Assembly: GCA_009845835.1 (NCBI GenBank)
Contig: VXYV01000037.1
Span: forward strand, 12,955-76,954
Length of the DNA: 64,000 nucleotides
DNA from: Gammaproteobacteria bacterium
GTDB lineage: Bacteria > Pseudomonadota > Gammaproteobacteria > Pseudomonadales > Azotimanducaceae
Direction: 5' to 3'
The first letter of the stretch is position 1. Every line of letters starts with the position of its first letter. The position numbers and the translations under genes are program-made. The notes below the pieces were generated by a model. It was not told where the DNA came from. It saw only the letters and a program-made list of their open reading frames with translations, and did no database searches. Positions 20,398-51,871 of this stretch are shown here, piece by piece.

Positions 20398-21060
20398 TCA
20401 AAATAGCGGTGCGGTTGAGATAGCTAATGAGACTTCGATATCTCGAATAGCATTTACTACACTTTGACCGATCAAATCTAGTTGTCGAATGTCTTCTACT
20501 CGATCCGCGAGTTTGACCAATTCATTTGCCGGTAGTAGGACATTAAGAATGCCGGTCGCATGAGCTAAACAAAGTAGAATGACGTCCCGCGGTGAAGGAA
20601 TCGCATCCGAAAACAATACCTCCATTAGGCGAAGTTTTACTTCGCGTTCTTGTTTCCCATCCAAGATAGGATACTTTCGCGACTTAAACACCCACAGGAT
20701 ACGTGAATCACGACATTCCAGTATCCCTTTTCCGATTAATCCGTCTAGAGCATCTTGACGAATTTCGTCGGATCGATCGGAAAGATACTCAATCCAATAA
20801 CGGATATCGCGAATTTCTTTTTCTGATTCAATCGTATCCAAGATATTATTGGCAAGCGGGTGGTTTAATGGTTCGCGATTGATTACAGTGAGTTGTTTCA
20901 AATCAGTGTCGATTCGACCAGCTTCGGCAAATTCCATCAAAATAGCACCGCTCATCGCATAACGGTTGGTCCAATTTGGTACATGAATGAAAGCCCCACC
21001 TTCGTCGCACAATTGGAGGAGGATAATTTCTTCGGCGATTGTAAGTCTAGAGGATTGCAT
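20398..21060 (-). CDS. GPP34/GOLPH3-family protein
   Basis: 220 aa. The N-terminal LTIAEEIILLQLCDEGG and the all-helical repeat organisation are typical of PF05719. Confidence 0.7.
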   Translation of the reverse strand: MQSSRLTIAEEIILLQLCDEGGAFIHVPNWTNRYAMSGAILMEFAEAGRIDTDLKQLTVINREPLNHPLANNILDTIESEKEIRDIRYWIEYLSDRSDEIRQDALDGLIGKGILECRDSRILWVFKSRKYPILDGKQEREVKLRLMEVLFSDAIPSPRDVILLCLAHATGILNVLLPANELVKLADRVEDIRQLDLIGQSVVNAIRDIEVSLAISTAPLF

Positions 21061-27073: not shown

Positions 27074-28933
27074 TTAGTCACACATGTCCAGATAAGGATT
27101 TTCGAAGTCTAAGTCGACGTGCTTCTGCCATCCGTCGACAATAATTTTCTCTTGTTCGATTTTTATATCTTCTCCATCAAGGACATCTTCTCCAAATTTG
27201 TAGACTGTAGGAATACCTGATCGAGTCGCCTTGTGGTCGTATTCATTAATTTTCTGTACCGTTAATGAGTTTCGTTCCCAGTATTGGGAAATTTCCTCCT
27301 TCCCAAACCGGTTTTCTAGCATCTTTAAAGTCTTTTGTGGGGATAGTAAGATACCGGTCGCATTGTTACCACCAAATCCCTTTGAGTTCACAAATGCAAC
27401 CTCCATCGGATTCTTTGGATCTGTTTCAATATGTTCGGTTGAAATTTTCAAGTTACTGTGGAAAACGTCATCGGCAATGTGATCGATAGTCGTAATCCCA
27501 GGAATCCAACCATCGTTCCAGGTACCTATAGCTGATGCTACTTGATCGCCTGAAGCTGCTGCTAAGGTGTGACCTAAGTAGGACTTTATCGCAGCGACTT
27601 GCCAATCTTGAACTCCAAAAACCTTAGCAACTTCGTTCAGAATATGTGATTCGGTTACTCGATTTTGCGGTGTACCAGTACCGTGAGCGTGGATAAATGA
27701 CCGTTGTTGTATGGATTCACTACCGACGATAGCTTGCGCGAGTGCTACAGCTTGAGCTACAGTGAGATAATTTCCCACGCCCGGACCTGGAATCGACTTT
27801 TTGAAGCCATCGGAATTTACGAATACAGCGGGTACAGAACCGTAAATGGTTGTACCCAGTTCAAGCGCAAGTGATTCTTCCATTAACACTACATAAACCG
27901 AGGCTTCTGCTAATGTGAATCCAGCATTGGTCGAAAAAGGTCGGCAAGAACGACGATGATTCGGTGTGTCTGTCCCATCTAACTGCATCAGATCTTCGTC
28001 AGCCGAGAGTGCCCCCATAATACGGTAACATTCCATCAATTCTGGTGTGATTGGTGCTTCAGCACCACCTGCAATCGCAATACGAGTTCTTCCCCGCATA
28101 ATCGAATCGACAGCTTGCTTCAAGTTATACAGAAAAGTAGCACATGCGCCGATGATTCCAGCTGTCGGTCCAACAGAACCGACAACGTAGGCATTGACAA
28201 AGTCCGCTGGCATTTCAGACAATCCAAACGCGGCTTGTTTAGATGTAGGACGTTTACCGAGAAACGGTGCCTGCAGCACACCGGCAAGCGAGTTTTCGTC
28301 ACACTGTCCCATTGCACTGCCAGCGAATACTGAGATCTCGGTGGGTTTGACGTGAGTTTTTACGGCTTCCCATGGTATTCCCAGAGAATGTAACGCGTCG
28401 GATGCTCCAACCAATGCTAGTTGAAGACCACGAGGATGATTGCGGCTGGGGTATGTTGTACTTGGATCAAAACCCGTAGGTAACCGACCAGCAGATGTGA
28501 CACGCGCAACTTGACGATCCGGAAACAACACTTTTACTGGTCCAGTTAACTCGACTCTCGTCCTAGTCTTTGTTTGTTCAACGATTCGACAATTGTCAGG
28601 TAAGGTGCGTGGGAAATGCCGTGTAGGTATGTCAAACTGAACCTTTTCTTCTTGATTAGGTTGAATCGTCGAACGTCGATGAAATGGAACCCCATTTTTG
28701 CCAATACTCTCTAATTCTCGGACTAAAGTGTGCTTTAGGATGTAGTCACGTGTTGTTTGATCGCGACTCGATGAATCTAAACACATCAACCCCTTTAGAG
28801 AAGCGAATGTTGCGTCTTCTTTGTCAGCAGAAAGTGCCTCGATGACCGTTCTTCGGTAGGCATGATGACATGAAATTCGACCGGCAGGGTTAACTCCTCC
28901 AAGACTAACAATTAAAGGAAGATGCAGTGTCAT
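27074..28933 (-). CDS. fabY: FabY-type beta-ketoacyl-ACP synthase (KAS I/II-domain initiator enzyme)
   Basis: 619 aa. The N-terminus LPLIVSLGGVNPAGRISCHHAYRRTVIEAL resembles P. aeruginosa FabY (PA5174). The active-site Cys is GACATFLY and the His pair is HAHGTGT / GHTLAAA. Confidence 0.8.
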   Translation of the reverse strand: MTLHLPLIVSLGGVNPAGRISCHHAYRRTVIEALSADKEDATFASLKGLMCLDSSSRDQTTRDYILKHTLVRELESIGKNGVPFHRRSTIQPNQEEKVQFDIPTRHFPRTLPDNCRIVEQTKTRTRVELTGPVKVLFPDRQVARVTSAGRLPTGFDPSTTYPSRNHPRGLQLALVGASDALHSLGIPWEAVKTHVKPTEISVFAGSAMGQCDENSLAGVLQAPFLGKRPTSKQAAFGLSEMPADFVNAYVVGSVGPTAGIIGACATFLYNLKQAVDSIMRGRTRIAIAGGAEAPITPELMECYRIMGALSADEDLMQLDGTDTPNHRRSCRPFSTNAGFTLAEASVYVVLMEESLALELGTTIYGSVPAVFVNSDGFKKSIPGPGVGNYLTVAQAVALAQAIVGSESIQQRSFIHAHGTGTPQNRVTESHILNEVAKVFGVQDWQVAAIKSYLGHTLAAASGDQVASAIGTWNDGWIPGITTIDHIADDVFHSNLKISTEHIETDPKNPMEVAFVNSKGFGGNNATGILLSPQKTLKMLENRFGKEEISQYWERNSLTVQKINEYDHKATRSGIPTVYKFGEDVLDGEDIKIEQEKIIVDGWQKHVDLDFENPYLDMCD

Positions 28934-28978
28934 GACAATATCATTGGTTGTTGGTAACTTTACACCGAGAATCTTTTT

Positions 28979-30130
28979 CTAATCGCGTTCGAGGGCAATT
29001 GCTGTCCCCTCACCGCCACCTATACAGAGCGCGGCGATTCCACGACGAAGATTTTTTACTCGTAAAGCATGTGTTAGTGTCACAATGAGTCGACTCCCAG
29101 TTGAACCCAATGGATGACCTTGAGCGCAAGAACCACCATATATGTTCACTTTACTAGGGTCTAACTTGAGGTGGTCGACTGCTAGCATAGTCACAACCGC
29201 GAAGGCTTCGTTTATCTCAAACAAATCCACAGAATCTATGTCCCATCCGGTTTGTTTAAGTAAAGTTTGAATGGCATAAATTGGTGCAAGAACAAACTTT
29301 TGTGGAGCTAATGCAATTGAGGCATGGGCAACAATGCGACAAAGGGGTTCGTGATTTTCAGCTTCGACTAATGAATCGTTTGCAAGTAGTAAAGCCGAGG
29401 CGCCGTCGGAAATTGAACTAGTACTTGCAGCAGTAATGGTACCATCTTTCCGAAATGCCGGTCGTAGACGTGGAATAGCCCCGACGTCTGACTTCCGCGG
29501 TTGTTCGTCTTCATTTAAGTCGTTTATCGGTGCGATCTCATGTTTTAGATCTTCCCTGTCCATCGCCTTTCGTGCTTTCGTTAAAGAACCAATCGCAAAT
29601 TCATCCATGCTCTCTCGAGTTACTTGATATTCATCAGCAGTTAATTGGGCATAGTCCCCCATCGTTTTGTTGGTTTCAGCATCCTCCAGACCGTCGGTGA
29701 ACATCGAATCAAGCACTTCTCGGTGCCCCAATCTATACCCTTGCCGAACACGAGGTAACAGGTGAGGCATATTTGTCATACTTTCCATCCCACCAACGAT
29801 GATACAGGAAGCGTTCTCCGATTTAATTGAGTCATGTCCAATCATGGTTGCTTTCATCCCAGAACCACACACTTTATTGACAGTTGTCGCAGGAGTAGTA
29901 TCATCCAGACCAGCTTCTCGCATTGCTTGTCTCGCAGGTGCTTGGCGTAATCCAGCGCTAACCACATTACCCATATAAACTTCATCAATCCGACTTGGAT
30001 CGATTGCTAAGTCTAGCGTGACTGACTTTATCGCATGAGCTCCTAAACTAGTCGCCGTCAATTTAGAGAACATTCCTTGAAAACTACCAATAGGTGTTCT
30101 TTTCGCCGCGAGAATAAAAGTATCGTTCAT
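28979..30130 (-). CDS. Acetyl-CoA C-acetyltransferase (thiolase II)
   Basis: 383 aa. The nucleophile Cys is NKVCGSGMKA, with GHPLGSTG and the C-terminal CIGGGEGTA. Confidence 0.9.
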   Translation of the reverse strand: MNDTFILAAKRTPIGSFQGMFSKLTATSLGAHAIKSVTLDLAIDPSRIDEVYMGNVVSAGLRQAPARQAMREAGLDDTTPATTVNKVCGSGMKATMIGHDSIKSENASCIIVGGMESMTNMPHLLPRVRQGYRLGHREVLDSMFTDGLEDAETNKTMGDYAQLTADEYQVTRESMDEFAIGSLTKARKAMDREDLKHEIAPINDLNEDEQPRKSDVGAIPRLRPAFRKDGTITAASTSSISDGASALLLANDSLVEAENHEPLCRIVAHASIALAPQKFVLAPIYAIQTLLKQTGWDIDSVDLFEINEAFAVVTMLAVDHLKLDPSKVNIYGGSCAQGHPLGSTGSRLIVTLTHALRVKNLRRGIAALCIGGGEGTAIALERD

Positions 30131-30636
30131 GAGTTGCTTGTAACCTTTAATCGGTCAATTACTTCGGCAAAATTACAGGGTTCGTGCATCGGATTTAATT
30201 GTTCATCAAGAATCTTACCCCAGGCAAGTTGACAAGCTCGTAATGAGCCAGGTAAAGCAACAATCAACGTTTTGTTTGTTATTCCAGCAAAGGCTCGCGA
30301 TTGAACCGTCGAAGATCCAATATCGGTATACGACAACCAGCGAAACAGTTCTCCGAAGCCAGGGACAGGTTTCTCCAGTAATGGTTCAATGGCGTCTGGG
30401 GTACTATCTCGCCCACTAAAACCTGTTCCCCCGGTGCAGATGATTGCATCAATACTTGGTTGTTTAATCCACTTTTGCACTATATTTTGAATTTCATCAA
30501 TGTTGTCTTTTACAATTGCCCGAGTGAACACAGAATGGGTACTGGTAGCAATCTGTTCCGCCAGATAAGCTCCTGAAGTATCGGTGTCGAGAGTCCGTGA
30601 ATCGGAAATCACGAGAATAGCTATTTCCATTTTCAC
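30127..30636 (-). CDS. moaB: Molybdenum cofactor biosynthesis protein B (MoaB/MogA fold)
   Basis: 169 aa containing ILVISDSR...[13 protein letters not shown]. It has an ATGA overlap with the thiolase start. Confidence 0.85.
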
Positions 30637-30749
30637 AACATTTCTGTTCGCAAAATTACAATGTACTTATCGATTAACAGACTCATTCGAACCTACTATA
30701 GTATCGTTTCTAACCGTACAATCATTATTATTCCGATTGATTCTATTGA

Positions 30750-33700
30750 TTGATACGACAATTTCGTTCTTTAAACTATGGTGACAGGTTGAAAACCGAA
30801 CGTTTGTTTCTGACAGCCGAACGGATTGCACAAGAGTTCAATTTGTTCCCTACGGCCGATCCTAAATCACTGTATTCAGTACAGGGATTGCTGTCGGAAC
30901 AACAGATTCAAGAAAGACTTAGTCAACTCCACGCATTAGATGTTGACAGTTACATTGAACAAGTTGTTGTTCCCGCTGAGTCACCTAATCGCACTCCCGC
31001 CTCTGTTATTGTGCAGAATTTGGGTCGCGTTACCCAGTTAAACTCCGTTGGACCTTATCTCGACGCAATTGTCGAGATGGACTTTTCCTCGGCTTTGGGT
31101 AAGAGAATGGTAGCTTTTCTAGCTCAAGATCGCGTTCACACTAACGGTGTTTGGGGACCAGAAGAACACGCGCGCGCAGCGGAGTTCGTGCAAGCTACAG
31201 CGCGACGTTCAATCCCGGTAGTCAGTCTTATGGACACCCCTGGGGCGGCAGCGGACGAGAGTGCTAATCGTGGAAACCAAGCACATCATATTTCCCGACT
31301 TATTGCTGTCATGTCTGATCTTGATGTACCAAACATTGGTGTTATCTTGGGTATCGGGTATTCTGGGGGAGCTATACCGCTAGCGGCGAGCAACATGATT
31401 CTCTCAGTTCGTGATGGCGTTTTTAGCACTATTCAACCACGTGGTCTGGCAAGCATTGCGCGCCGACTCAATTTATCTTGGCAAGAGTGTGCGAAACATG
31501 TTGGACTATCGCCGTACGAACTGCTGCAACAAGGCAATATCGACGGTGTGATTGACTATGTTCCAGGAGAATCAGGCACAAACCTAGAAAACTTTCGTCG
31601 CGCGATCGTAACTGGTATCGCTTCAATCGAAGCAAGTACTAAGGCATTTGTCGCACAGGAAGAAATGTTCGTTCAGGAGTACCAAAATGTCTTAAATCGT
31701 TATCTCAATCCTACGGAACGGATGAAACAAACAGAAAGCGCTTCGTTATTTGAGTTCGTTGAAAACCCAACTGATTACCTTAACGTATTTGGGTTAGCGT
31801 ACCGACATTCTCGATACTTGCGGGTACGGCGCCGGATCAAGTCAACAAAAACCAGCGTATATGGTCGCTTAGCACAGCGAGAGTTACCAGAAGGTGAGTT
31901 GCTGCAACGCATCGAATTTGATCGACGTAAAGATTTCTTGTTATGGTTACAGGATCCTGATCGTATTGTTTACGACGACACAATTAAAAGTGCTTGGCGC
32001 AATTATTTGGCACGTAAAAGTGCGCTGGGCGATCAGCGGAATCGCTTACAACGCGCCCTATTTGGGGAACCAAAGAAAAACCTTACTGTCGCACAGAACA
32101 GTCTATTTGGTGTCGTGTGTGCTTACCTTGTTAATCGTTGGAAAGTAAGTGCTGCCGATAATCTCAAATTGTTGATTGGGTTCTTGCGTAACGAGTCGCG
32201 GCGCTTTGATCTCGTTCATCCCCAGGAAATAATGAATCCACGTGATCTGTTGAAGCAAATTGAAAGCAATGACAAAGTAGGAGAAGAACTGCGCAAACGC
32301 TTCACACATCATGGCTCGAAGTTGGTTAGAAGTAGCGAGATCGAGCGCTTAACCGACGAGCAATTGACAGAACAAATAGCGTTAGAACTGAATTTAGCTC
32401 TTACAGGTAGCTTGCTTCCCGTTTACTCGCATGAATCAGAGCAAGTCGTAGAAGACGATATCGACGTAACAACGCATAACCGGAAGCGGATAGAGAAAGA
32501 ATTTGGACGTTTTCTACGTGGTCGCAGTGTTGGATTTGCTGTCGTCGCAGAAGAAGCGACCATTAATATTCTCGACATCCTTCAACAACCTGATCTCAAA
32601 TCACTTTTTGTTGACGAACTAGAGCATCATTTAGTTTTTGATCAAGTTTACGATGGCGTCATTCGCTCGCTTGACAAGCTCGCTGCAGAAGCGAAAAATA
32701 CGCACGCGTTTGAAGCTTACACTATTCGTAATTTGTTGCTGAAAGAAACTGAAAGTGCGATCCGTGATATCAAGAATATTCCAGATGCAGACTTGACTGA
32801 AATCGAACAACACCAACAAGAGTTTTTTGCTTGGTATTTGCGGTTTGCAAGTAACGCAGTCTTTCGAAAGTATTTGGTAGCGGTTGAAGAATGGAAAAAA
32901 GCAATGTATTCGAATCTGTCGGACACGTTGTTCGTTGTCGTGACGTTTATATTCGAAAAACTCGTTGTGTCCTACTTGAAATATGAGAGTGAAAATTCAC
33001 GCTACAACGGTCGCATTACACCTCGTAATATAGGGCGTCGACGGGATTTCTGGAATAGACTGAACAACGCGTATCGAGATCTTCAAATCCAGGAAGTCTT
33101 GAAAAAATGGAGACAGACTCATCCGATCTCCTATGACGGATTCATTGAGAAATTCTTTGATGACTTTGAGCATTTGTTCACCGATCAACTGAGTAGTGAC
33201 CCAGTTCACTTCCCGGGATTTCGCATGTCCATTGAAAAAGCGATGGACAACCAATTACAACCTTGTGGAGTAGTAACTGGGATTGGTACTTTCAGACATC
33301 TCGACGTTGAGTTGCGAGTTGGGACTGTTATTTCCAACACCGCATTTCAAGCGGGTGCTTTTGATATGGCTAGTGCAGAAAAATTTTGTCGTTTGCTTCA
33401 CACTTGTGCAGATCGTCGATTACCTGTAATCTGTTTTATTTCCTCTGGGGGTATGCAAACAAAAGAAGGTGCAGGAGCTCTGTTTTCCATGGCTGCGATT
33501 AACGATCGAATTACTCATTTTGTTCGAGACTACGATCTTCCAATAGTAGTTTTTGGGTACGGGGATTGTACCGGTGGAGCCCAAGCGAGTTTTGTTACAC
33601 ATCCATTGGTCCACACGTATTACTTTGCAGGAACCAGTCTACCGTTCGCAGGTCAGATAGTAGTACCGAGTTATCTACCATTGGATTCCATTCTCTCCAA

Positions 33701-35672
33701 TTATCTAGTCAAAGTACCAGGTTCAATGCAGGGTCTAGTGCGACATCCATTTTTCGATAACTTAGACGAAGATTTACAGAAGATCGACCCAGACATCCCT
33801 GTATCTGAAGATTCAGTAGAAGATGTTGTCAAAGGTGTGATGGAAGGAGCATTGACCGCTGTACGGACGGTCGAACTACCAGTCGAACAACAGCAAAAGT
33901 CAATCAAGGAGGAAGATCTATATCGTCCAATCAAGAAGGTTATGGTACATGCGCGCGGCTGTGCCGCTGTCAAAATTGTTCGTATTGCTCAGCGTCAGGA
34001 CATTGATGTCGTTTTAGTGCAATCAGATCCGGATATGGAATCGGTTGCGGTGGATCTCTTACGAAGTCAAGATGAACTAATTTGCATCGGTGGGAGTACG
34101 CCAGATGAAAGTTATTTAAATGCCCGTTCCGTCTTGATGGTAGCCGATCAAACAAAAGTCGATTCATTACATCCGGGTATAGGGTTTCTTTCGGAGAATA
34201 GTCAATTCGCTCGACTAATTAGGCGACATGGGATCAATTTCGTCGGACCACCGGTAGCTTCGATGGAAACCATGGGTAACAAATCTAATGCGATCAATAC
34301 CGCCCTAAAACTCGGAATTCCGGTGGTACCGGGTAGTCACGGTATCGTAGATAACGTCGAACGTGCTATAGAACTCAGCCTCTCTATAGGATTTCCGATG
34401 CTCATCAAAGCGGTTCACGGTGGTGGCGGTAAAGGAATTCAACTAGTAGAATCGCCGAATGATTTCGTCGAACTATTCCAACGAGTTTCAGTCGAAGCGC
34501 GTGCCGCCTTCGGTAGTGGCGATGTATATCTCGAAAAATACATTACTAATCTTCGTCACATAGAAGTACAGATCTTGCGAGACAGTCATGGAAATACAAA
34601 GGTACTGGGCATACGTGACTGTAGTGTCCAGCGGAATCGACAGAAAATCTTCGAGGAATCTGCGTCGACGATGCTACCATCAAAACTTGAAAGAAGTGTC
34701 CACGACTATAGCGCAAAGATCGCCGACGAAGTCGGCTACGTTGGCGCGGGAACAGTTGAATTCATTTACGATCTCGATTCTAAGAACGTATACTTTATGG
34801 AGATGAACACACGGTTGCAAGTCGAACACCCTGTTACGGAGCTTGTATCAGAAGTCGATATCGTTGCCCAACAATTTGCTATTGCTTCAGGCGCTAGTAT
34901 CAGTGATCTACGTGTCGGTAGTAAAGGCTATGCTATTGAAGCCAGAATTAACGCAGAGACAGTCGCACGCGATAGTAGTGGAAAGGTAGTCTTTCGTCCA
35001 AGTGCTGGTCGCATCACGAAGTGTGAATTGCCAGAAGATCCTCGTGTCGAAGTGATTTCGATTGCCGCTAAAGAAAAATTTATTTCACCATATTACGATA
35101 GTATGATCGCGCAGATTATTGCCCACGGTTCTAGTAGAAATTCTGCTGCTGATCGGCTTTTTGCTTTTCTTGACCAAGTAAGACTTGAAGGAATTGGTAG
35201 CAATGTAGCTTTGCTTAAACGCATCTTACAAGATGAAGTCTTTCGCGGTGGCAATTACTCCACTGATTACCTACCGGACTTCCTCGAACGTACCGACACC
35301 GCAAGCTTGATTACAGAAATGCAAGACATGTGTGGGAAATCGGACTCGGAAATAGATACAAGTACTATTACGATAGAGGGTAGCGATGAATTACGAGTGT
35401 TATCGCCCACTACCGGTATTTTCTACTCTAGACCTTCACCCACTGAGACAGATTACGTTAACTCGGGAGACATCGTTGACATTGATGCAATTCTTTGTCA
35501 AATTGAAGCGTTCAAAGTTTTTGCACCGCTCCGTTTACGAGATTTAAACACAACCGGTAATGAAGAGCTATACCCAAATTCCAAGAAGTATAAGGTTACT
35601 CGTATCAATGTTGCGACTGGTCAACAGATCAATACGTCGGACTTATTGTTCATCGTCAAACCTCAAGATTAA
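30750..35672 (+). CDS. Single-chain multidomain biotin carboxylase: AccA-like CT / long linker / AccD-like CT / biotin carboxylase / BCCP
   Basis: 1640 codons. The AccA-like part is PVVSLMDTPGAAAD..GIGYSGGAIPLA. The AccD-like part is GVVTGIGTF..FQAGAFDMASAEKF..PVICFISSGGMQTKEG. The BC ATP-grasp part is GFPMLIKAVHGGGGKGIQ and MEMNTRLQVEHPVTE. The BCCP part is SPTTGIFYSRPSP...CQIEAFKVF. The start codon is uncertain because there is no in-frame ATG before codon 110. Confidence 0.85.
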   Translation: MIRQFRSLNYGDRLKTERLFLTAERIAQEFNLFPTADPKSLYSVQGLLSEQQIQERLSQLHALDVDSYIEQVVVPAESPNRTPASVIVQNLGRVTQLNSVGPYLDAIVEMDFSSALGKRMVAFLAQDRVHTNGVWGPEEHARAAEFVQATARRSIPVVSLMDTPGAAADESANRGNQAHHISRLIAVMSDLDVPNIGVILGIGYSGGAIPLAASNMILSVRDGVFSTIQPRGLASIARRLNLSWQECAKHVGLSPYELLQQGNIDGVIDYVPGESGTNLENFRRAIVTGIASIEASTKAFVAQEEMFVQEYQNVLNRYLNPTERMKQTESASLFEFVENPTDYLNVFGLAYRHSRYLRVRRRIKSTKTSVYGRLAQRELPEGELLQRIEFDRRKDFLLWLQDPDRIVYDDTIKSAWRNYLARKSALGDQRNRLQRALFGEPKKNLTVAQNSLFGVVCAYLVNRWKVSAADNLKLLIGFLRNESRRFDLVHPQEIMNPRDLLKQIESNDKVGEELRKRFTHHGSKLVRSSEIERLTDEQLTEQIALELNLALTGSLLPVYSHESEQVVEDDIDVTTHNRKRIEKEFGRFLRGRSVGFAVVAEEATINILDILQQPDLKSLFVDELEHHLVFDQVYDGVIRSLDKLAAEAKNTHAFEAYTIRNLLLKETESAIRDIKNIPDADLTEIEQHQQEFFAWYLRFASNAVFRKYLVAVEEWKKAMYSNLSDTLFVVVTFIFEKLVVSYLKYESENSRYNGRITPRNIGRRRDFWNRLNNAYRDLQIQEVLKKWRQTHPISYDGFIEKFFDDFEHLFTDQLSSDPVHFPGFRMSIEKAMDNQLQPCGVVTGIGTFRHLDVELRVGTVISNTAFQAGAFDMASAEKFCRLLHTCADRRLPVICFISSGGMQTKEGAGALFSMAAINDRITHFVRDYDLPIVVFGYGDCTGGAQASFVTHPLVHTYYFAGTSLPFAGQIVVPSYLPLDSILSNYLVKVPGSMQGLVRHPFFDNLDEDLQKIDPDIPVSEDSVEDVVKGVMEGALTAVRTVELPVEQQQKSIKEEDLYRPIKKVMVHARGCAAVKIVRIAQRQDIDVVLVQSDPDMESVAVDLLRSQDELICIGGSTPDESYLNARSVLMVADQTKVDSLHPGIGFLSENSQFARLIRRHGINFVGPPVASMETMGNKSNAINTALKLGIPVVPGSHGIVDNVERAIELSLSIGFPMLIKAVHGGGGKGIQLVESPNDFVELFQRVSVEARAAFGSGDVYLEKYITNLRHIEVQILRDSHGNTKVLGIRDCSVQRNRQKIFEESASTMLPSKLERSVHDYSAKIADEVGYVGAGTVEFIYDLDSKNVYFMEMNTRLQVEHPVTELVSEVDIVAQQFAIASGASISDLRVGSKGYAIEARINAETVARDSSGKVVFRPSAGRITKCELPEDPRVEVISIAAKEKFISPYYDSMIAQIIAHGSSRNSAADRLFAFLDQVRLEGIGSNVALLKRILQDEVFRGGNYSTDYLPDFLERTDTASLITEMQDMCGKSDSEIDTSTITIEGSDELRVLSPTTGIFYSRPSPTETDYVNSGDIVDIDAILCQIEAFKVFAPLRLRDLNTTGNEELYPNSKKYKVTRINVATGQQINTSDLLFIVKPQD

Positions 35673-36424
35673 AAGGATTGTGTCACTAGTTCCCAAACAC
35701 CTTGTAGAACACAAAGTATCGATACGAGGCGAATAATCCACGGTACCAGATTTTGAAAGGTCTGTTCTGGTACCCGGTGCAAAATTTGCACTCCACACCA
35801 GGTACCTAACATCGACACAACGACAGCTACCAAAGTAAGACCCAAGATTTCCTGGCCACTAGATAGCCAATTGAGTTGTACCGTAATGTATAGATAGTAA
35901 CCCATCTTACACACGTGTCCTATTGTTTGGGTGAATGCCTTCGTGGCGACAATTTCGAAGCGATTGAGCTGTGATTTTTGAAAAAAGAGATCTAGTATTG
36001 GTCCCGAAGTACCCGCTAGCAGTTGGGTAAATCCAACAGTTGCGCCGCAGAGGAAACTTACCCAAGGTTTTTTAATGTCAAGCCCCCAATTTTTAGGAAT
36101 GTTGACTCCAATGAGAGTGACAATTCCGATGAGTAGTAACAGCAGTCCCTTGTGAGGAACGATAGTTAGTAATACAAATGGAACTAATGCGGTAGCAGTA
36201 CCGAGAAAATAGACGGGAAGTGTAGACCATACTACATGTTGACGGATCAACAAGAACCGCGACCCGTTAGCAAATGCTTGAACGAGACCATGCAAAAACA
36301 TCGCATTCGGCACGCTCATTAGACTTACTAGGATCGCGAGCAGAATGATGCCGCCAGCCATACCGACTACACCTGACAAAAGGCTTGTCAGGAACACAGA
36401 GATGGTTACCAGCAGATACAGCAC
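35669..36424 (-). CDS. TSUP (TauE/SafE) family anion exporter
   Basis: 251 aa with about 8 TM helices. SGVVGMAGGIILLAIL and GTSGPILD are typical repeats. Confidence 0.8.
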   Translation of the reverse strand: MLYLLVTISVFLTSLLSGVVGMAGGIILLAILVSLMSVPNAMFLHGLVQAFANGSRFLLIRQHVVWSTLPVYFLGTATALVPFVLLTIVPHKGLLLLLIGIVTLIGVNIPKNWGLDIKKPWVSFLCGATVGFTQLLAGTSGPILDLFFQKSQLNRFEIVATKAFTQTIGHVCKMGYYLYITVQLNWLSSGQEILGLTLVAVVVSMLGTWCGVQILHRVPEQTFQNLVPWIIRLVSILCVLQGVWELVTQSF

Positions 36425-36492: not shown

Positions 36493-39400
36493 CTAGGAGT
36501 CAGTTGCAAGCGGCGGTGGTGAACGTTCGGCCTGAGGTTCAAAATTGGCTACGACACTCCAACTACTGCGTGCCCAACGTACAAACACCACTGCAAGCCA
36601 AAGCAACCACATGACGATCAATGCCAGATATACCCATTGCGGTAGCGCAAGCAACCAAACAACGGGTAGTGATTCTCCTACTTCATCGACATACCAACTA
36701 AAGTAATTGTGAAACATATTTCCACTGGAAACATCCACCAAAACATTGATTACCAAGTAAATGACAACGATGCCAAAAATGACACCTAGCAGAACGAAAA
36801 TGCTTTGTATTACACGAAAAAGTATCTTGTACTTCGAATCTTGTTGGTTGTGCGACCGCCACCAGACCACTAATTTCCATACCCCGATCACAAAAAAGAT
36901 CCATGGATTAGTCAGCGCTGAGCCTATTGCTAAGAGAATCACTTCCACGACTGACATTCCAATATTCGGGACACGTACTAAGCAGAGTCCGAGCACAATC
37001 AAACCTGCCGCCGTGAGCCAAGTCAACACATCAGGATTCTGTGCTAAACCACCGGTCCAAATTACCCAACGATTCCGTGGTACCGACACGGTATAACTCA
37101 TATTTAAGGCTTGTTGATTCAGAGTAATAGTTGGCGATTTTTCTAATATGTCAACACCTGAAGCTGTTTCCCACTCAATTTGGTAACGGCCTAAACCGTT
37201 ACTAATCGGTAACAGTATTGTTGACGATGGTGGTATCGGTTGTTGATCGTTGTTGGCGAGAATATCTTTAATTATTGCGTTTTCCGGAATACTAATAGAA
37301 AATTCGCTCGCTTGTGTCGCTTGGACAGATAAGTACAGTGTTGTTTCCGTTGTACGCTCTTTCACGCCCATTGCTAGATGAGCCCTTTCAACCGTTAGCG
37401 TAGTACCGGGTACTCTGCTTGGCTGCGAAAATTTCAAGTCCAAAGTTTCACCTGATAGCGGTACAAAAATGGTCAAACGATTGTCGGATTGAATGGGAGT
37501 TATTCCGGCAAAATCAAGTAACCAAAACTCCGAAGTCCGAATCGACCATACTTCCGATCTTTCCGTTAGATCAGGGGCGCGCAGTTGTAGGTCCATTTGG
37601 GCATTGAACAGACTTTCCCATCTGAATGAACTTTGCCAACCTGCGAAATTGATAACCATCTCTCGAATTTCCATTAAGTCACTGTGTTCGAGTACCGCCT
37701 CGTTTGGAAGCAACGGTATTCGAACAGTAAATTCGCCGGTTTCCGGTGCGATACGCTCAACGACCGTTTCCATTCTTGGTTCATACTCTAAGTAAATCTT
37801 TCGAGTTACCGATACATAGGGATAGATGAATTGACGAGACTTCATTAATGAGTTGGTTTCATCGTCATCGTCCGTATCGCGCACTGTTTTTCGAAGCGAA
37901 AAAGATTGTTGTTGTAATTGATTTTGATTGATTCCTTCTACCTGCCAGCCTTCAGTATTCAGATAGATGTAACTGGGTAACAGTGGGAATCGAAAGTCAA
38001 GTCGGTACAAGTTGCTAATGTTTGCTATGACTGTAACATCATGGACACCTTTATCCAAAACCGTATAGAGGTGAGTTCGTTTGCGTAACAAAGGTAAGTC
38101 TACTTCATCAAGGGAAATCTCCTTAAGGTGCCAGGTATCCTCGCTCGTTGGTAATGGAACCGCTACTCGGTTGAGTGTGTGAATGCGAAGAACCATTGTC
38201 ATTTGGTCGTCATTTGTCGTAACCGTTGCTTGTTCCATATAGGCACAATCGCCTTCGCATTCCATCGCATCCAACAGTCGATCTTCAAGATCCTCAAGCA
38301 GGTCGCTGTCAGGTATCTCTGCATGTAAGTCGTTGGCCGTATTCAACATGAGACCAACCAGCAATAGACATGGCACAATGCGCACGACTCGTTTAATTAA
38401 GTTTGGTAATTGGGCGACTGTTTGCGGTACTTGAACTAATAGAAAGAATATCGAGACTACCGCCATCAGAATCGCGCCAATACCGATTGCAGTACGTGAG
38501 ACCCATGGTGGTAGTAGCACAAAATTTAGATTTTGATTGGTACTAACTGAGCCATCCCAATCAAACTGTACTGAATTGTGCCGCCAGAATGGCGTCCCTG
38601 GGCCGGTTTGTACATTTACAGCTCGAGTGTTCGTAGGTCTTGTTTGGGTACTTGAAGTGTCCCCAGTTAGATCATCTCCTGTATCACCGATATAGGCGGT
38701 CTGAGGGTTAGTGGAACTGAACTGTTGTGGAATCTTTCGGAAGAAGTCGTCAATCGTAGTCGCACCGGTTGCGGCACTGTCTTCTGCCTCATAGATGACC
38801 ATATTAGCAGTGCTACCCCCTTCTGGTAGCCGCGACCCTGTAGCAACAACCAGCCTGTCAGGTTTCGGTAATCTTCTCTGCAACTCAACGGATACAGTAT
38901 CGATTAAAGAGTAGTTATAGTTTTGTTCTTGACCGAGTTGGGGGTACAGGGCATCGCGGGCGAGAAAAGTAGCTGTGTAAATCGTCATGAGTGACACTAC
39001 AATGAGAACCACACCATAGCAGATTCGTAGAATTTTTTGTAGGTGGTTTGAACGAACAAATCGAAGCAACAGACCTAGGCTGGCAAGCCCGATCCAACCG
39101 ATCATCGGTTCGAAACTATAAGGGAAACTTAGCAATATTGTGACCGCTAGTACGGTCGTCCACAAAGTACCTCCTAGACGAAAGACTAAGATGAGTAACA
39201 GGAGAGCAAGGAATATGCTCGCGATCGACCAATGCGACACCCATGAATTTTTAACTTGATCCGAACCTTGCGACCAAAGCATCAACCAACCGGGTGGTAG
39301 ATGCATGGTCATGTTTAGACCCTGGGCTTCAATGTCCCAGCCAATCGCAGGAATGGAATTGCTTTTTTTGAACTGTGTTACCGCTTCGATTTCAGAAATG

Positions 39401-40701
39401 TCTTCCGAAACCGTTACTCCTGGTAATCGTTCCTGTTCCGGGTCGTGGAAGGTCAGTAGACGAAATTCACCGTCGACTTTTACTCGCCCCGGCAGATATT
39501 TTGAAATTAACGGTTCGGTGTCCACGGCATCGAGATAAAAAGTGTCTTCAGCAATGAACGACTCCCCTGCAAAATTTAACCATAATTCGCGTTCGACGTA
39601 GTAGTCCGTCGGACGGGGGTTAACGTCGCCCCGTTGTCCTTCCGTGAACACTAAATCTGCATCAGCCGAAAGAACAAAGCCGGTTTTTTTATCCAGTCTG
39701 TATGCGATTCGCACCGGAATATCGATTTGGTCAAGATTGGTTCGTGGTGGTCCTGCCATACTAATTACTCGAATTGCTGGATTAGGTTCTACCATCCAGA
39801 CCTCTTCGGCAGGCCAATCTTCAGAAATTTGTTGATAACTGAAACGGTTGAACTGTTCAACTGCACGGGCCTCGATCTGTACCCAATTGTTACCAACTTC
39901 GACGGCTAAGGTTACATTTCCCGATTCATCAAGAAGTGCTGGTCTACTCGATTCCAAGTGAGTTGCAAGAAACCCCGCGGGTAGTACTTCGCCGAGTGTT
40001 ATAAGGCGAGAACGACCGGTGACAGTCAGTTGAACATAGGTAACAAGCATTTGGGGCACACTATCTTCAAGTGACCGGAAAACGCGAAGTTTTTGCGTGT
40101 CTTTAGCATCAGATTCTTCAGACGGTTCAGCTGGTTTTTCCAACACTTGTGTGAGCCATAGTTTTGTTCCATGATTAGTCAGGACAGGCTGTACGATAGG
40201 CTCACCATCAATGCGAAAATTCACGATACCCGCACCGGGTAAATCGACGTATTCCAATGTGAATTCTGGATCCCAAGTTAGCTCTAAAGTTACGATGTGA
40301 ACGCCTTTGGTTAGAAATACCATCGGTTGGTTGTTACCGCCCATCACCGGTACTCTGTTACCATCAGCAAGGACGTTTCGCGGTTTAATCGAAGCTGCTA
40401 CGGGTAATGACACCTGCGTGTCCGCGAAAGCGTCCACATTCATACGAATTTGGAGTATCGGGCTGGAACTGGTTTGGAGATGTATGTCGATTTCGCGAAT
40501 CCAACCACAGTCCAAGCGAGTCCCGTTATCGAACGTCTGTGGGCAACTAATCTGCGGGTTTTGTTCTAATACCCAGTCCACCCATGGTTTGAGTACTTCT
40601 GGGACATAAACATCTTGTGTAATATCCTGTGCGTGTGCTACATATGCGCACAAGAATACACAAGCAAATAATTGCAACTTTATAAATAAATTTGTCTTCA
40701 T
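36493..40701 (-). CDS. Giant envelope protein of unknown function (internally duplicated module)
   Basis: 1402 aa. It has a signal peptide (FACVFLCAYVAHAQD), a beta-rich region of about 450 aa, a TM bundle, a Thr/Gly/Asp-rich spacer, a second signal-like helix, a second beta-rich region and a C-terminal TM bundle. Confidence 0.8.
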   Translation of the reverse strand: MKTNLFIKLQLFACVFLCAYVAHAQDITQDVYVPEVLKPWVDWVLEQNPQISCPQTFDNGTRLDCGWIREIDIHLQTSSSPILQIRMNVDAFADTQVSLPVAASIKPRNVLADGNRVPVMGGNNQPMVFLTKGVHIVTLELTWDPEFTLEYVDLPGAGIVNFRIDGEPIVQPVLTNHGTKLWLTQVLEKPAEPSEESDAKDTQKLRVFRSLEDSVPQMLVTYVQLTVTGRSRLITLGEVLPAGFLATHLESSRPALLDESGNVTLAVEVGNNWVQIEARAVEQFNRFSYQQISEDWPAEEVWMVEPNPAIRVISMAGPPRTNLDQIDIPVRIAYRLDKKTGFVLSADADLVFTEGQRGDVNPRPTDYYVERELWLNFAGESFIAEDTFYLDAVDTEPLISKYLPGRVKVDGEFRLLTFHDPEQERLPGVTVSEDISEIEAVTQFKKSNSIPAIGWDIEAQGLNMTMHLPPGWLMLWSQGSDQVKNSWVSHWSIASIFLALLLLILVFRLGGTLWTTVLAVTILLSFPYSFEPMIGWIGLASLGLLLRFVRSNHLQKILRICYGVVLIVVSLMTIYTATFLARDALYPQLGQEQNYNYSLIDTVSVELQRRLPKPDRLVVATGSRLPEGGSTANMVIYEAEDSAATGATTIDDFFRKIPQQFSSTNPQTAYIGDTGDDLTGDTSSTQTRPTNTRAVNVQTGPGTPFWRHNSVQFDWDGSVSTNQNLNFVLLPPWVSRTAIGIGAILMAVVSIFFLLVQVPQTVAQLPNLIKRVVRIVPCLLLVGLMLNTANDLHAEIPDSDLLEDLEDRLLDAMECEGDCAYMEQATVTTNDDQMTMVLRIHTLNRVAVPLPTSEDTWHLKEISLDEVDLPLLRKRTHLYTVLDKGVHDVTVIANISNLYRLDFRFPLLPSYIYLNTEGWQVEGINQNQLQQQSFSLRKTVRDTDDDDETNSLMKSRQFIYPYVSVTRKIYLEYEPRMETVVERIAPETGEFTVRIPLLPNEAVLEHSDLMEIREMVINFAGWQSSFRWESLFNAQMDLQLRAPDLTERSEVWSIRTSEFWLLDFAGITPIQSDNRLTIFVPLSGETLDLKFSQPSRVPGTTLTVERAHLAMGVKERTTETTLYLSVQATQASEFSISIPENAIIKDILANNDQQPIPPSSTILLPISNGLGRYQIEWETASGVDILEKSPTITLNQQALNMSYTVSVPRNRWVIWTGGLAQNPDVLTWLTAAGLIVLGLCLVRVPNIGMSVVEVILLAIGSALTNPWIFFVIGVWKLVVWWRSHNQQDSKYKILFRVIQSIFVLLGVIFGIVVIYLVINVLVDVSSGNMFHNYFSWYVDEVGESLPVVWLLALPQWVYLALIVMWLLWLAVVFVRWARSSWSVVANFEPQAERSPPPLATDS

Positions 40702-50326: not shown

Positions 50327-51871
50327 CTACCAGACGAGGATCTCAAGTTCGCGCGCAACTTGTTCGAATTCATCCAATTTCACCGATTGTCTGAAATCAA
50401 GAACATTCTCTTCATTGATATAGTCGATTGCTTGTTCGCAATTGATGTAGTCCGAATCCGGCTGGTCACTTGGCTTTGATTGTGGTCTTGAATGTTCGTC
50501 GTTGAGTTGTTTTGCTCGAATGGCGTTCATATTAAATGCACCGCAAATTCGATTACAGAGATGGTCGACAAGCCATTGTAAATCGTATTGATAACCTAGT
50601 TCATCAAATTGAACTAATCCTTGTATACTTTCTTTGAGTACATTAATCAATTCCTTTAGCGGTTCGTTCGAGTGTTCAATCGTTCCACCAAATTGAATGG
50701 CACTTTGATTAAATGAAACAATGTCGGTCCATGGATATTCTTGACGCAAATACGATTGTATTTCTGTAGTATGTGGGTGTTCAAGATTAAATACAACTGT
50801 TGATAAACTCGCCGTGAAATCCCCAAAATGTGCGGCAATGGCAAACATAACCTTGGATAGATTCTCCGCAATCACATGTGTATACCGAGCATCGGGAACT
50901 TCGTCTAAGGAAACTCCCAAAGCATTCCCTATTTCCATGAGTTTATCGTAGGTTTTGCGATCAACATCTTCCGGCGAGAACAGCAACTTTTCGAGTCCAA
51001 ATTCAGCACATTTTTTGTTCATCCAAATTGAATATAGAAGCGATTCGGAATCGTTGGCTGAGACACGATCAAATTGATTTTGGTTAATTATTCCTTGTTT
51101 GTTTGTTGCCCAAATGATTTGTGTGTTTTTGTTACGGGCAATTATTCTCTCAATACTTGGTCGAGGTGTATTAGGATATAAGCTTTCTTCGTCTACGTAC
51201 AGACTTCCTCTATATAGAGATCTAAATTCTTCGTACACTCCATCGAAATGCAATGTATTAGTCTGAACTCCACAGGCGTCTGTAAACGCGGCGAAGGCAG
51301 TAAACGATTCTGCGTGACAAGCTTTATTAAGTTCAGGAGATAAAAAGGGTACTTCAGTAAACAGACACTCTTCTTGCTTTAACGCTTCAAGAACAAGATC
51401 GCGATCTGTCTGTGGCTGTTTAAAAATTCGTTCATTGGACATTGTTTCAGGAATTGTGATCCACGTCGAACCGCGATGCCCGACGTATTCACGGGCGTCA
51501 AAATACTCTTCCAAAGTTTGCCAGCATTCGTTGGTGAAAATTGACAAATCTGAATTTTCAAAACTGTTGCGTGTAATTATGTGACTATCGGGACACACGC
51601 GGAGAACGTCGAAGCGATTTATATTCGGTTCAGTGCGATTGTTTATGACTTTGGATGTTTGTGGTGATTTACTCGTATTTTCTAATTTCGTTTCTAAGTG
51701 TTCTATTTCGGGTACAGATTCTGCGATATTTGAACTCTTATCGGACTTTAGCAAAATTATTCCAAAAACGCTAACCAAGAATAAGCCAAGGAATACACTA
51801 GCTAACATCCCGATCATGTACAGACCTTGAACTTTCTTCACGAGTCGTCTGCTCCATGGAAGGTAGAGCAA
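50327..51871 (-). CDS. Hypothetical membrane-anchored/secreted protein (orphan)
   Basis: 514 aa with an N-terminal anchor (MIGMLASVFLGLFLVSVFGIILL). It is Cys-containing and acidic, with no motif I recognise. The start is 51871 or Met 19 (51817). Confidence 0.65.
   Translation of the reverse strand: MLYLPWSRRLVKKVQGLYMIGMLASVFLGLFLVSVFGIILLKSDKSSNIAESVPEIEHLETKLENTSKSPQTSKVINNRTEPNINRFDVLRVCPDSHIITRNSFENSDLSIFTNECWQTLEEYFDAREYVGHRGSTWITIPETMSNERIFKQPQTDRDLVLEALKQEECLFTEVPFLSPELNKACHAESFTAFAAFTDACGVQTNTLHFDGVYEEFRSLYRGSLYVDEESLYPNTPRPSIERIIARNKNTQIIWATNKQGIINQNQFDRVSANDSESLLYSIWMNKKCAEFGLEKLLFSPEDVDRKTYDKLMEIGNALGVSLDEVPDARYTHVIAENLSKVMFAIAAHFGDFTASLSTVVFNLEHPHTTEIQSYLRQEYPWTDIVSFNQSAIQFGGTIEHSNEPLKELINVLKESIQGLVQFDELGYQYDLQWLVDHLCNRICGAFNMNAIRAKQLNDEHSRPQSKPSDQPDSDYINCEQAIDYINEENVLDFRQSVKLDEFEQVARELEILVW

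What the first reader, a model, noticed from the sequence alone, without database searches (positions are those of the whole stretch)
30750..35672. 1640-aa single-chain biotin carboxylase with a non-canonical domain order (CT-alpha, linker, CT-beta, BC, BCCP)
All four activities of a bacterial acetyl-CoA carboxylase are fused in one ORF. The order I read is AccA-like CT (about nt 30930-31740), an unassigned region of about 500 aa, AccD-like CT (about 33270-33760), biotin carboxylase (about 33930-35290) and BCCP (about 35390-35669). The single-chain carboxylases I know (eukaryotic ACC, actinobacterial long-chain acyl-CoA carboxylase) run BC-BCCP-CT with the beta-like CT half before the alpha-like half. 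This looks like an independent fusion with the CT halves swapped and the BC/BCCP at the C-terminus. The AccD-like part also lacks the N-terminal Cys4 zinc ribbon of E. coli AccD. The BC N-terminus reads VHARGCAAVKIV rather than the usual IANRGEIA. The substrate is not deducible from sequence (acetyl-CoA or another acyl-CoA).
Basis: partly seen in the sequence, partly recalled or inferred. Interest (0 to 1): 0.85.

Follow-up and report, generated by a model that had tools for sequence, protein, structure and literature searches.

The report
Single-chain bacterial acetyl-CoA carboxylase (AccS type)
This gene encodes a real, intact enzyme that carries all four parts of bacterial acetyl-CoA carboxylase in one chain, but it belongs to the AccS family already described in Shewanella oneidensis, whose structure has been solved, so it is a new member of a known kind.

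Summary
Window 30750..35672 (+) is one intact 1640-aa ORF. Its domain order is AccA-like CT, an all-helical central region of about 500 aa, AccD-like CT without a zinc ribbon, biotin carboxylase, then BCCP.

The protein is a full-length homologue of Shewanella oneidensis AccS (SO_0840, 1517 aa). AccS was named in 2016. [quoted passage not shown] Its cryo-EM structure as a holoenzyme dimer is PDB 9KKM/9W4A, released in November 2025.

The window protein keeps every catalytic residue I checked and the biotin-accepting lysine (K1589). An AlphaFold2 model of residues 1-1055 superposes on 9KKM (TM 0.77).

It differs from AccS in three ways:
- A helical insertion of about 110-120 aa (aa 483-601) marks a "long-form" clade.
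- There is no divergent LysR regulator (AccR).
- A conserved divergent moaB-thiolase-large ketosynthase cluster sits upstream.

Family members are far more numerous in marine Pseudomonadales and sponge-symbiont MAGs than the literature suggests; most of the 120 best database hits are long-form.

Most likely function: the housekeeping malonyl-CoA-forming ACC. I could not test whether separate accABCD genes coexist in this genome.

The parts
30750..35672 (+). accS-type gene: single-chain acetyl-CoA carboxylase, 1640 aa including the TTG start. The start is uncertain; in-frame TTGs at 30789 and 30804 are alternatives.
   Evidence: ORF list and translation. Full-length match to PDB 9KKM_A, S. oneidensis AccADCB. 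120 listed full-length homologues.
31026..31649 (+). CT-alpha (AccA-like) half, aa ~93-300. Contains the family-invariant motif G203-Y-S-G206-G207-A-I-P-L, which I infer to be the biotin-side oxyanion hole.
   Evidence: Pfam ACCA aa 131-292 and NCBIfam AccA_sub aa 126-297. Alignments to the AccA chains of 9M70, S. aureus and E. coli. Invariant columns.
31650..33164 (+). Central all-alpha-helical region, aa ~301-805, joining the C-terminus of CT-alpha to the N-terminus of CT-beta. It matches no Pfam family and is the least conserved part of the protein.
   Evidence: AlphaFold2 model secondary structure. The model superposes on 9KKM_A including this region (TMq 0.77 over 1017 columns). Conservation profile.
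32196..32552 (+). Clade-specific insertion, aa ~483-601 (about 110-120 aa, helical with a disordered loop at ~552-572). It is absent from S. oneidensis AccS and the other short-form members.
   Evidence: phmmer maps query 482 to chain 482 and query 602 to chain 494. Representative alignment: 114-140 residues here in long forms, 15-46 in core short forms and 7-10 in the distant fusions. Pairwise borders and no internal duplication. pLDDT about 70-88.
33165..33854 (+). CT-beta (AccD-like) half, aa ~806-1035, with no Cys4 zinc ribbon. Contains the family-invariant motif C940-T-G942-G943-(A)-Q-A-S-F (A944 only nearly invariant), which I infer to be the acyl-CoA-side oxyanion hole.
   Evidence: TIGR00515 aa 806-950. 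Alignment to S. aureus AccD. G942/G943 align with G182/G183 of the propionyl-CoA carboxylase B-subunit chain 3MFM_C. Invariant columns.
33927..35309 (+). Biotin carboxylase (ATP-grasp) domain, aa ~1060-1520.
   Evidence: Pfam Biotin_carb_N, CPSase_L_D2 and Biotin_carb_C; NCBIfam AccC 454-479 bits. 40% identity to E. coli BC. K116, K159, the Gly loop, E201, H209, E211, K238, E276, E288, N290, R292, Q294, E296 and R338 are all conserved here and in 27 of 27 family members.
35382..35669 (+). BCCP domain, aa ~1545-1640. The biotin-accepting Lys is K1589 (codon 35514-35516) in the motif EAFKV.
   Evidence: TIGR00531. Alignment to E. coli BCCP 1BDO places K1589 on K122. The Lys lies in an EAxKx motif in 119 of 120 relatives, with variable flanks (EAFKI, EAMKI, EAFKV, EAMKL).
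30637..30749 (.). 113-nt divergent intergenic region between moaB and accS, the presumed promoter region. No LysR gene flanks it.
   Evidence: Sequence. One promoter-like site, TTAACA-17-TATAGT at 30674-30702, but the number of such sites in the region is not above the shuffled expectation.
27074..30636 (-). Conserved divergent neighbours (context, not part of the enzyme): moaB (30127..30636), acetyl-CoA C-acetyltransferase-type thiolase (28979..30130), and a 619-aa ketosynthase (27074..28933).
   Evidence: Pfam and NCBIfam. The ketosynthase matches PDB 4CW4 over its full length, E 4.8e-168. Synteny is kept in about 30 related MAG loci.

Best explanation
The gene encodes a likely orthologue of Shewanella oneidensis AccS, a homomeric, single-chain acetyl-CoA carboxylase that makes malonyl-CoA for type II fatty-acid synthesis.

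Proposed mechanism:
1. The C-terminal BCCP domain carries biotin on K1589.
2. The adjacent BC (ATP-grasp) domain uses MgATP and bicarbonate to carboxylate the biotin.
3. The BCCP domain then swings to the carboxyltransferase site. That site is formed between the AccD-like half (G942-G943, which would stabilise the acetyl-CoA enolate) and the AccA-like half (G206-G207, which would stabilise the biotin ureido oxyanion).
4. The carboxyl group is passed to acetyl-CoA there.

The helical central region of about 500 aa replaces the non-covalent alpha/beta assembly and the zinc ribbon of the heteromeric enzyme. It probably acts as a scaffold. By analogy with the S. oneidensis holoenzyme, the working unit is probably a dimer.

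Shown here: the domain order, full-length homology to AccS, intact catalytic and biotinylation residues, fold agreement with 9KKM, and a core housekeeping genomic setting.
Inferred: acetyl-CoA specificity, dimeric state, biotinylation, the scaffold role of the central region, and that this is the cell's main ACC.
For: - Domain order and borders.
- Full-length match to PDB 9KKM_A/9W4A 'AccADCB', 1517 aa, E = 0, 1579 bits. The Foldseek entry title identifies it as a holoenzyme dimer from S. oneidensis, mutant E1238A.
- The AlphaFold2 model of aa 1-1055 (pLDDT 74.9, pTM 0.63) superposes on 9KKM_A with TMq 0.77 over 1017 columns. The next best hits are AccA and AccD chains.
- All E. coli BC catalytic residues are conserved. 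The reference sequence was verified as identical to 1BNC.
- The residue mutated in 9KKM (E1238A) aligns with window E1359, which is E. coli E296.
- The CT glycine motifs are invariant across 32 sequences.
- K1589 aligns with E. coli BCCP K122.
- Literature on AccS: SO_0840 is 1517 aa and replaces AccABCD in S. oneidensis (PMC4793157). It is a biotinylated band of about 170 kDa, and the growth defect of low AccS is rescued by E. coli accA+accD+accBC (PMC11602165).
- Context: the gene sits among housekeeping genes (obg, murJ, ribF, lspA, ilvC, prfC, valS, lptFG, tgt, secDF). It is divergent to a large ketosynthase that I take to be a FabY-type initiating enzyme (the 4CW4 = FabY identification is from memory) in about 30 related genomes.
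Against: - No enzymology exists for this protein or for any long-form member. Overall identity to short-form representatives of the Shewanella type is only 44-45%, and Foldseek gives 40% to 9KKM over aa 1-1055.
- The biotin motif is EAFKV rather than the canonical EAMKM.
- The insertion of about 115 aa (aa 483-601) has no counterpart in the solved structure.
- I could not examine the rest of the genome. A canonical accABCD set could coexist, which would make this enzyme accessory.
- The regulator AccR of the Shewanella system is absent here.
- Parts of the CT active-site loops have low model confidence (pLDDT below 50 at 230-248, 901-906, 940-946 and 963-993).
Confidence: 0.85

Rival explanations
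1. It is an accessory acyl-CoA carboxylase that coexists with a canonical AccABCD. It would carboxylate a different substrate (for example propionyl-CoA or acetoacetyl-CoA-related thioesters), or supply malonyl-CoA to a specialised pathway.
For: The genome outside the 64 kb window could not be checked, so coexistence is open; no paralogue lies in the window or within 10 kb in related loci, which says little. JGI names for homologues read 'acetyl/propionyl-CoA carboxylase'. A thiolase gene lies immediately upstream in conserved synteny. The long-form insertion and the non-canonical EAFKV motif distinguish it from characterised AccS.
Against: Both CT halves are of the AccA/AccD type, not the PCC/MCC-beta type. 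The protein shares with AccS the full-length architecture and family-specific motifs (HARGC[AT]A, GYSGGAIP, CTGG.QAS). AccS is the ACC that replaces AccABCD in S. oneidensis (PMC4793157, PMC11602165). The gene lies in a core housekeeping region beside a large ketosynthase that I take to be FabY-type (from memory), which would fit primary fatty-acid synthesis.
Confidence: 0.1
2. It is a previously unknown, independently evolved fusion architecture.
For: The domain order does differ from eukaryotic ACC and LCC. Curated family libraries have no full-length model for it; only per-domain hits were returned.
Against: A solved structure (9KKM/9W4A) and two papers describe the same architecture in S. 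oneidensis. [quoted passage not shown]
Confidence: 0.02
3. The ORF is an assembly chimera or a decaying pseudogene.
For: None found. The only weak points are the TTG start and the MAG-like origin.
Against: The same full-length architecture occurs in the 120 best protein clusters listed, on independent contigs that include single contigs of 2-5 Mb, and in full-length loci on MAG records titled as chromosomes. Synteny is conserved on both sides. There are no internal stops. All catalytic residues are intact.
Confidence: 0.01

Closest known systems
Shewanella oneidensis AccS (SO_0840, 'acetyl-CoA carboxylase multifunctional enzyme AccADCB'; PDB 9KKM, 9W4A)
   Same: It has the same single-chain order: CT-alpha, helical central region, CT-beta (no zinc ribbon), BC, BCCP. 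Homology is full-length (E = 0). The fold agrees (TMq 0.77). In short-form family representatives of the Shewanella type the family-specific motifs are the same: HARGC[AT]A at the BC N-terminus, GYSGGAIP in CT-alpha and CTGG.QAS in CT-beta. The catalytic Glu mutated in 9KKM is conserved.
   Different: The window protein is about 120 aa longer because of a helical insertion at aa 483-601. Identity to short-form representatives of the Shewanella type is about 45% overall and 22-38% in the central region. The biotin motif is EAFKV here and EAMKM in AccS. No divergent LysR AccR is present; moaB-thiolase-large ketosynthase lies upstream instead.
Heteromeric bacterial ACC (E. coli AccA, AccD, AccC, AccB)
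   Same: All four components are homologous, domain by domain. The BC catalytic residues are identical. The CT halves are of the AccA/AccD type. The BCCP lysine aligns with K122.
   Different: The parts are fused in one chain in the order A-D-C-B, with a 500-aa helical insert between A and D. The AccD Cys4 zinc ribbon is missing. ANRGEIA is replaced by HARGCAA. Two positions I recall as E. coli BC dimer-interface residues are charge-swapped: E23 to R/K and R366 to E/D.
Eukaryotic ACC, actinobacterial or Pseudomonas-type single-chain LCC (PDB 4RCN), and the Saccharopolyspora erythraea multidomain ACC (PMC6491548)
   Same: These are also single-chain, multi-domain biotin-dependent acyl-CoA carboxylases with a swinging BCCP.
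   Different: Their order is BC-BCCP-CT, with the beta-like CT half before the alpha-like half, and their CT is of the PCC-beta type. The window CT-alpha part matches 4RCN only weakly (E 4.5e-5). This points to a separate fusion event.
Chloroflexus aurantiacus ACC with fused BC-BCCP (PMC11077971; CT structure PDB 9M70)
   Same: It is another partial-fusion variant of the heteromeric type. Its CT-alpha chain is the best non-AccS PDB sequence match for the window CT-alpha part (7e-16).
   Different: Only BC and BCCP are fused there. CT-alpha and CT-beta remain separate chains.

Membership tests
AccS-type single-chain ACC (S. oneidensis SO_0840 / PDB 9KKM) | One polypeptide with the order CT-alpha, helical central region, CT-beta, BC, BCCP | tested here: met
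AccS-type single-chain ACC (S. oneidensis SO_0840 / PDB 9KKM) | Full-length sequence homology to SO_0840 | tested here: met
   phmmer E = 0, 1579 bits. Query 17-482 and 602-1639 align to chain 17-482 and 494-1515.
AccS-type single-chain ACC (S. oneidensis SO_0840 / PDB 9KKM) | Same three-dimensional arrangement of CT-alpha, central region and CT-beta | tested here: met
   AlphaFold2 model against 9KKM_A: TMq 0.77, rmsd 4.2 A over 1017 columns. The model has moderate confidence. The BC and BCCP part was not modelled.
AccS-type single-chain ACC (S. oneidensis SO_0840 / PDB 9KKM) | Intact BC, CT and biotinylation residues | tested here: met
AccS-type single-chain ACC (S. oneidensis SO_0840 / PDB 9KKM) | Acetyl-CoA carboxylase activity and in vivo biotinylation | not testable with these tools
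   Shown genetically and by streptavidin blot only for S. oneidensis AccS (PMC11602165).
AccS-type single-chain ACC (S. oneidensis SO_0840 / PDB 9KKM) | Replaces AccABCD: no separate accA, accC or accD in the genome | not testable with these tools
   Only 64 kb is available. There is no paralogue in the window or within 10 kb in related loci.
AccS-type single-chain ACC (S. oneidensis SO_0840 / PDB 9KKM) | Divergently transcribed LysR activator AccR. This is a feature of the Shewanella regulon, not of the enzyme. | tested here: not met
   The upstream divergent gene is moaB. No LysR-type Pfam hit was found in any of the 45 ORFs of at least 150 aa that were scanned, out of 48 listed in the window.
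Eukaryotic ACC / single-chain LCC type | Order BC-BCCP-CT with the beta-like CT half first | tested here: not met
   The order here is CT-alpha...CT-beta-BC-BCCP.
Heteromeric AccABCD | Separate subunits, and a Cys4 zinc ribbon at the AccD N-terminus | tested here: not met
   There is a single ORF. The stretch read before the AccD-like core (aa ~756-846) contains one Cys (C839) and no CxxC pair. C839 is invariant across the family.

The most novel reading that the evidence does not exclude
The long-form clade is a functionally distinct variant of AccS. It comprises marine Pseudomonadales, 'Ca. Azotimanducaceae', the OMG group and sponge-symbiont MAGs. Its helical insertion of about 115 aa in the central scaffold could add a regulatory or oligomerisation module that the solved Shewanella enzyme lacks. 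Its fixed divergent pairing with thiolase and a ketosynthase that I take to be FabY-type (from memory), without AccR, could mark a compact and differently regulated module at the acetyl-CoA node for starting fatty-acid synthesis.
Probability: 0.15. Interest if true: 0.4.

Novelty: new member of a known kind. Interest (0 to 1): 0.22.

Why it matters
The architecture itself is not a discovery. It was annotated in the S. oneidensis genome, named AccS in 2016, supported genetically in 2024 and solved by cryo-EM in 2025.

The modest value lies in three points.
[quoted passage not shown] The word-indexed search found 1057 proteins with E <= 1e-10. That count includes hits to the biotin carboxylase domain alone, but the 120 best are all full-length. 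The related loci come from marine and sponge-associated Pseudomonadales MAGs.
- Most of those members carry a 110-120-aa insertion that the solved structure lacks.
- In this clade the gene is paired with a large ketosynthase that I take to be FabY-type (from memory) rather than with AccR.

These points are useful for people mining compact ACCs for malonyl-CoA engineering and for studying how ACC subunit fusions evolved.

Tried and rejected
- Literature searches for 'AccADC' and 'AccADCB', for cryo-EM single-chain ACC, and for multifunctional ACC in Alcanivorax, Marinobacter or Hahella found no dedicated paper. '9KKM' appears only in a map-processing benchmark. The AccS papers surfaced only through a broader query. 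No primary publication of the 9KKM structure was found in the library.
- Lombard & Moreira 2011: the passages returned for my search terms do not mention this architecture.
I used aa 1-1055 instead.
- The listing of cluster members gave almost no names or organisms for the representatives.
- Checking for separate accA/B/C/D in the same genome was impossible.
- The promoter and terminator scan gave no more sites than shuffled sequence, so no regulatory claim is made.
- The insertion at aa 483-601 is not an internal duplication.
- The identity of PDB 4CW4 as P. aeruginosa FabY rests on my memory. It could not be confirmed in the paper library.
- The 1402-aa downstream ORF has no Pfam, NCBIfam or PDB sequence match.
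Full report
**1. Observation**

Window 30750..35672 (+) is a single uninterrupted ORF of 1640 codons that starts at TTG.

Pfam and NCBIfam place the domains as follows:
- AccA-type carboxyltransferase at aa 126-297 (PF03255 2.7e-27; NF041504 AccA_sub 8e-34).
- A weak but specific AccD match at aa 806-950 (TIGR00515 1.7e-11).
- A very strong biotin carboxylase at aa 1061-1513 (AccC models 454-479 bits).
- A BCCP match at aa 1545-1592 (TIGR00531 2.2e-8).

Searching each part alone against PDB sequences confirms the assignments:
- CT-alpha matches the AccA chains of 9M70, S. aureus and E. coli (7e-16 to 1.6e-13).
- CT-beta matches S. aureus AccD (6.3e-13).
- The C-terminus matches E. coli BCCP.

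So are the two side remarks. The AccD-like part has no Cys4 zinc ribbon: the stretch I read before its core (aa ~756-846) contains one Cys, C839, and no CxxC pair. The BC N-terminus reads HARGCAA where E. coli has ANRGEIA.

The start codon is uncertain. TTG 30750 is simply the first start after a stop. In-frame TTGs at 30789 and 30804 exist, and homologues align from residue 14-17.

**2. What it is**

The decisive result is. The whole protein matches one PDB sequence over its full length: 9KKM_A/9W4A, 'Acetyl-CoA carboxylase multifunctional enzyme AccADCB', 1517 aa, E = 0, 1579 bits. The Foldseek library gives that entry's title as a cryo-EM structure of the holoenzyme dimer from Shewanella oneidensis, mutant E1238A, released 2025-11-19.

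Two papers describe the protein:
- Luo et al. 2016 (PMC4793157) list AccS = SO_0840, 1517 aa, as the single-protein ACC of S. oneidensis. They state that E. coli AccABCD homologues are not found and are replaced by AccS, although an extra AccB homologue, SO_0511, exists.
- Xu et al. 2024 (PMC11602165) show that AccS is a biotinylated band of about 170 kDa. Lowered accS expression slows growth, and E. coli accA+accD+accBC rescues this. The divergent LysR regulator AccR activates accS. [quoted passage not shown] The architecture is therefore a known, named and structurally solved family.

**3. Is the window protein a functional member?**

BC domain. I aligned it with E. coli BC, using a reference sequence verified as identical to 1BNC. 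Identity is 40%. K116, K159, the glycine loop, E201, H209, E211, K238, E276, E288, N290, R292, Q294, E296 and R338 are all conserved here and in 27 of 27 family sequences. The residue mutated in the deposited structure (E1238A) aligns with window E1359, the equivalent of E. coli E296.

CT halves. Across 32 sequences down to 51% identity, the motifs G203-Y-S-G-G-A-I-P-L (alpha) and C940-T-G-G-(A)-Q-A-S-F (beta, A944 only nearly invariant) are invariant. G942/G943 align with G182/G183 of the propionyl-CoA carboxylase B-subunit chain 3MFM_C. From established knowledge of PccB (Diacovich et al. 2004, recalled), those residues form the acyl-CoA oxyanion hole. The alpha-half Gly pair corresponds to the biotin-side hole. 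This assignment is an inference.

BCCP. K1589 aligns with E. coli BCCP K122. The flanking residues vary within the family (EAFKI 53, EAMKI 36, EAFKV 19, EAMKL 8 among 120 relatives). A Lys in an EAxKx motif was found in 119 of the 120.

Structure. An AlphaFold2 model of aa 1-1055 built on a 32-sequence alignment (mean pLDDT 74.9, pTM 0.63) shows two alpha/beta CT halves separated by an all-helical region at aa ~277-802. It superposes on 9KKM_A with TMq 0.77 over 1017 columns. The next hits are stand-alone AccA and AccD chains.

**4. How it most likely works**

By homology, the BC domain carboxylates biotin on K1589 using ATP and bicarbonate. The BCCP domain then carries carboxybiotin to the CT site formed by the AccD-like and AccA-like halves, where acetyl-CoA becomes malonyl-CoA. 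The helical central region links the C-terminus of the alpha half to the N-terminus of the beta half. It takes the place of the zinc-ribbon N-terminus of AccD, and I infer that it is a scaffold. The S. oneidensis enzyme is deposited as a dimer, and I infer the same here.

Two positions that I recall as E. coli BC dimer-interface residues are charge-swapped across the family: E23 to R/K and R366 to E/D. This suggests a remodelled BC-BC contact, but it is speculation.

**5. Differences from S. oneidensis AccS**

(a) Insertion. Query residues 483-601 have no counterpart in 9KKM: query 482 maps to chain 482 and query 602 to chain 494. A search of 1.84 billion cluster representatives with aa 1-1055, followed by an alignment of the full-length hits, separates two forms. 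The long form is 1608-1640 aa and has 114-140 residues in this interval (the window protein, P0121, P0123, P0127, P0128). The short, Shewanella-like form is 1405-1551 aa and has 15-46 residues there. The insertion is predicted to be helical with a disordered loop. It is not an internal duplication and is among the least conserved parts of the protein.

(b) Regulation and context. There is no LysR gene next to accS, and none among the 45 ORFs of at least 150 aa that I scanned out of 48 listed in the window. The divergent upstream genes are moaB, an acetyl-CoA C-acetyltransferase-type thiolase and a 619-aa ketosynthase. The ketosynthase matches PDB 4CW4 over its whole length (E 4.8e-168). I recall 4CW4 as P. 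aeruginosa FabY, the initiating condensing enzyme, but I could not confirm this in the paper library. The arrangement prfC | ketosynthase-(thiolase)-moaB <-> accS | TauE is kept in about 30 related loci, down to 53% AccS identity.

(c) Distribution. The word-indexed search found 1057 proteins with E <= 1e-10. That count includes hits to the BC domain alone, but the 120 best are all full-length. The genome scan places the relatives in MAGs labelled Gammaproteobacteria, Pseudomonadales, 'Ca. Azotimanducaceae', OMG group, K189A clade and Spongiibacteraceae. The closest (98%) is JAPPMF010000012.1, isolate RHO3_bin_3. This is broader than the published statement of 'a small number of genera'.

More distant proteins with the same domain order also exist. 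P0164 has canonical INRGEIA and GEGGSGGA motifs. P0143, P0160 and P0168 are others. They hint at older or repeated A-D-C-B fusions. I did not resolve this.

**6. Rivals**

- An accessory carboxylase with another substrate cannot be excluded, because the rest of the genome is out of reach. The AccA/AccD-type CT, the family-specific motifs shared with AccS and the housekeeping setting argue against it. The large-ketosynthase neighbour adds to this only if my recollection that 4CW4 is FabY is correct.
- A chimeric assembly or pseudogene is excluded by the many independent full-length homologues, conserved synteny on both sides and intact catalytic residues.

**7. Verdict**

The gene is a new member, in a long-form clade, of the known AccS family. 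Interest is low to modest.

Noticed in passing
window 27074..28933 (-), with 28979..30130 (-) and 30127..30636 (-): A 619-aa ketosynthase matches PDB 4CW4 (639 aa) over its full length, E 4.8e-168. I recall 4CW4 as P. aeruginosa FabY, the FabH-replacing initiator of fatty-acid synthesis, but could not confirm this. With a thiolase and moaB it lies divergent to accS in about 30 related Pseudomonadales MAG loci. If the recollection is right, ACC and the initiating condensing enzyme are paired.
   Followed up: partly
window 36493..40701 (-): A 1402-aa ORF has no Pfam, NCBIfam or PDB sequence match. It is nevertheless conserved at 33-35% identity downstream of accS/TauE in many related loci. It is a large conserved protein of unknown function.
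   Followed up: partly
window 20398..21060 (-): A 220-aa bacterial protein matches the GPP34 (Golgi phosphoprotein 3) family over nearly its full length (Pfam PF05719, 1.6e-39). This family is better known from eukaryotes.
   Followed up: no
window 50327..52926 (-): Two adjacent ORFs (514 and 362 aa) have no Pfam match. They lie in the lowest-GC stretch of the window (0.39-0.40 against about 0.44 elsewhere). This could be a horizontally acquired islet.
   Followed up: no
window 1281..6811 (-): A MoxR-type AAA ATPase is followed by DUF4350, an unassigned 482-aa ORF, and SpoIIM-like and RDD-family membrane proteins. The run resembles a MoxR-associated membrane gene cluster of unknown role.
   Followed up: no
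window 35669..35672: The accS stop codon overlaps by 4 nt the 3' end of the convergent TauE-family gene (35669..36424, -). No intergenic space is left for a terminator between the two, and no terminator-like site was found there.
   Followed up: no
representative proteins P0143, P0160, P0164, P0168: These are distant proteins of 1479-1760 aa with the same CT-alpha...CT-beta-BC-BCCP order. Some have canonical AccC- and AccA-like motifs (INRGEIA, GEGGSGGA). They may be older or independent A-D-C-B fusions outside the core AccS family.
   Followed up: partly
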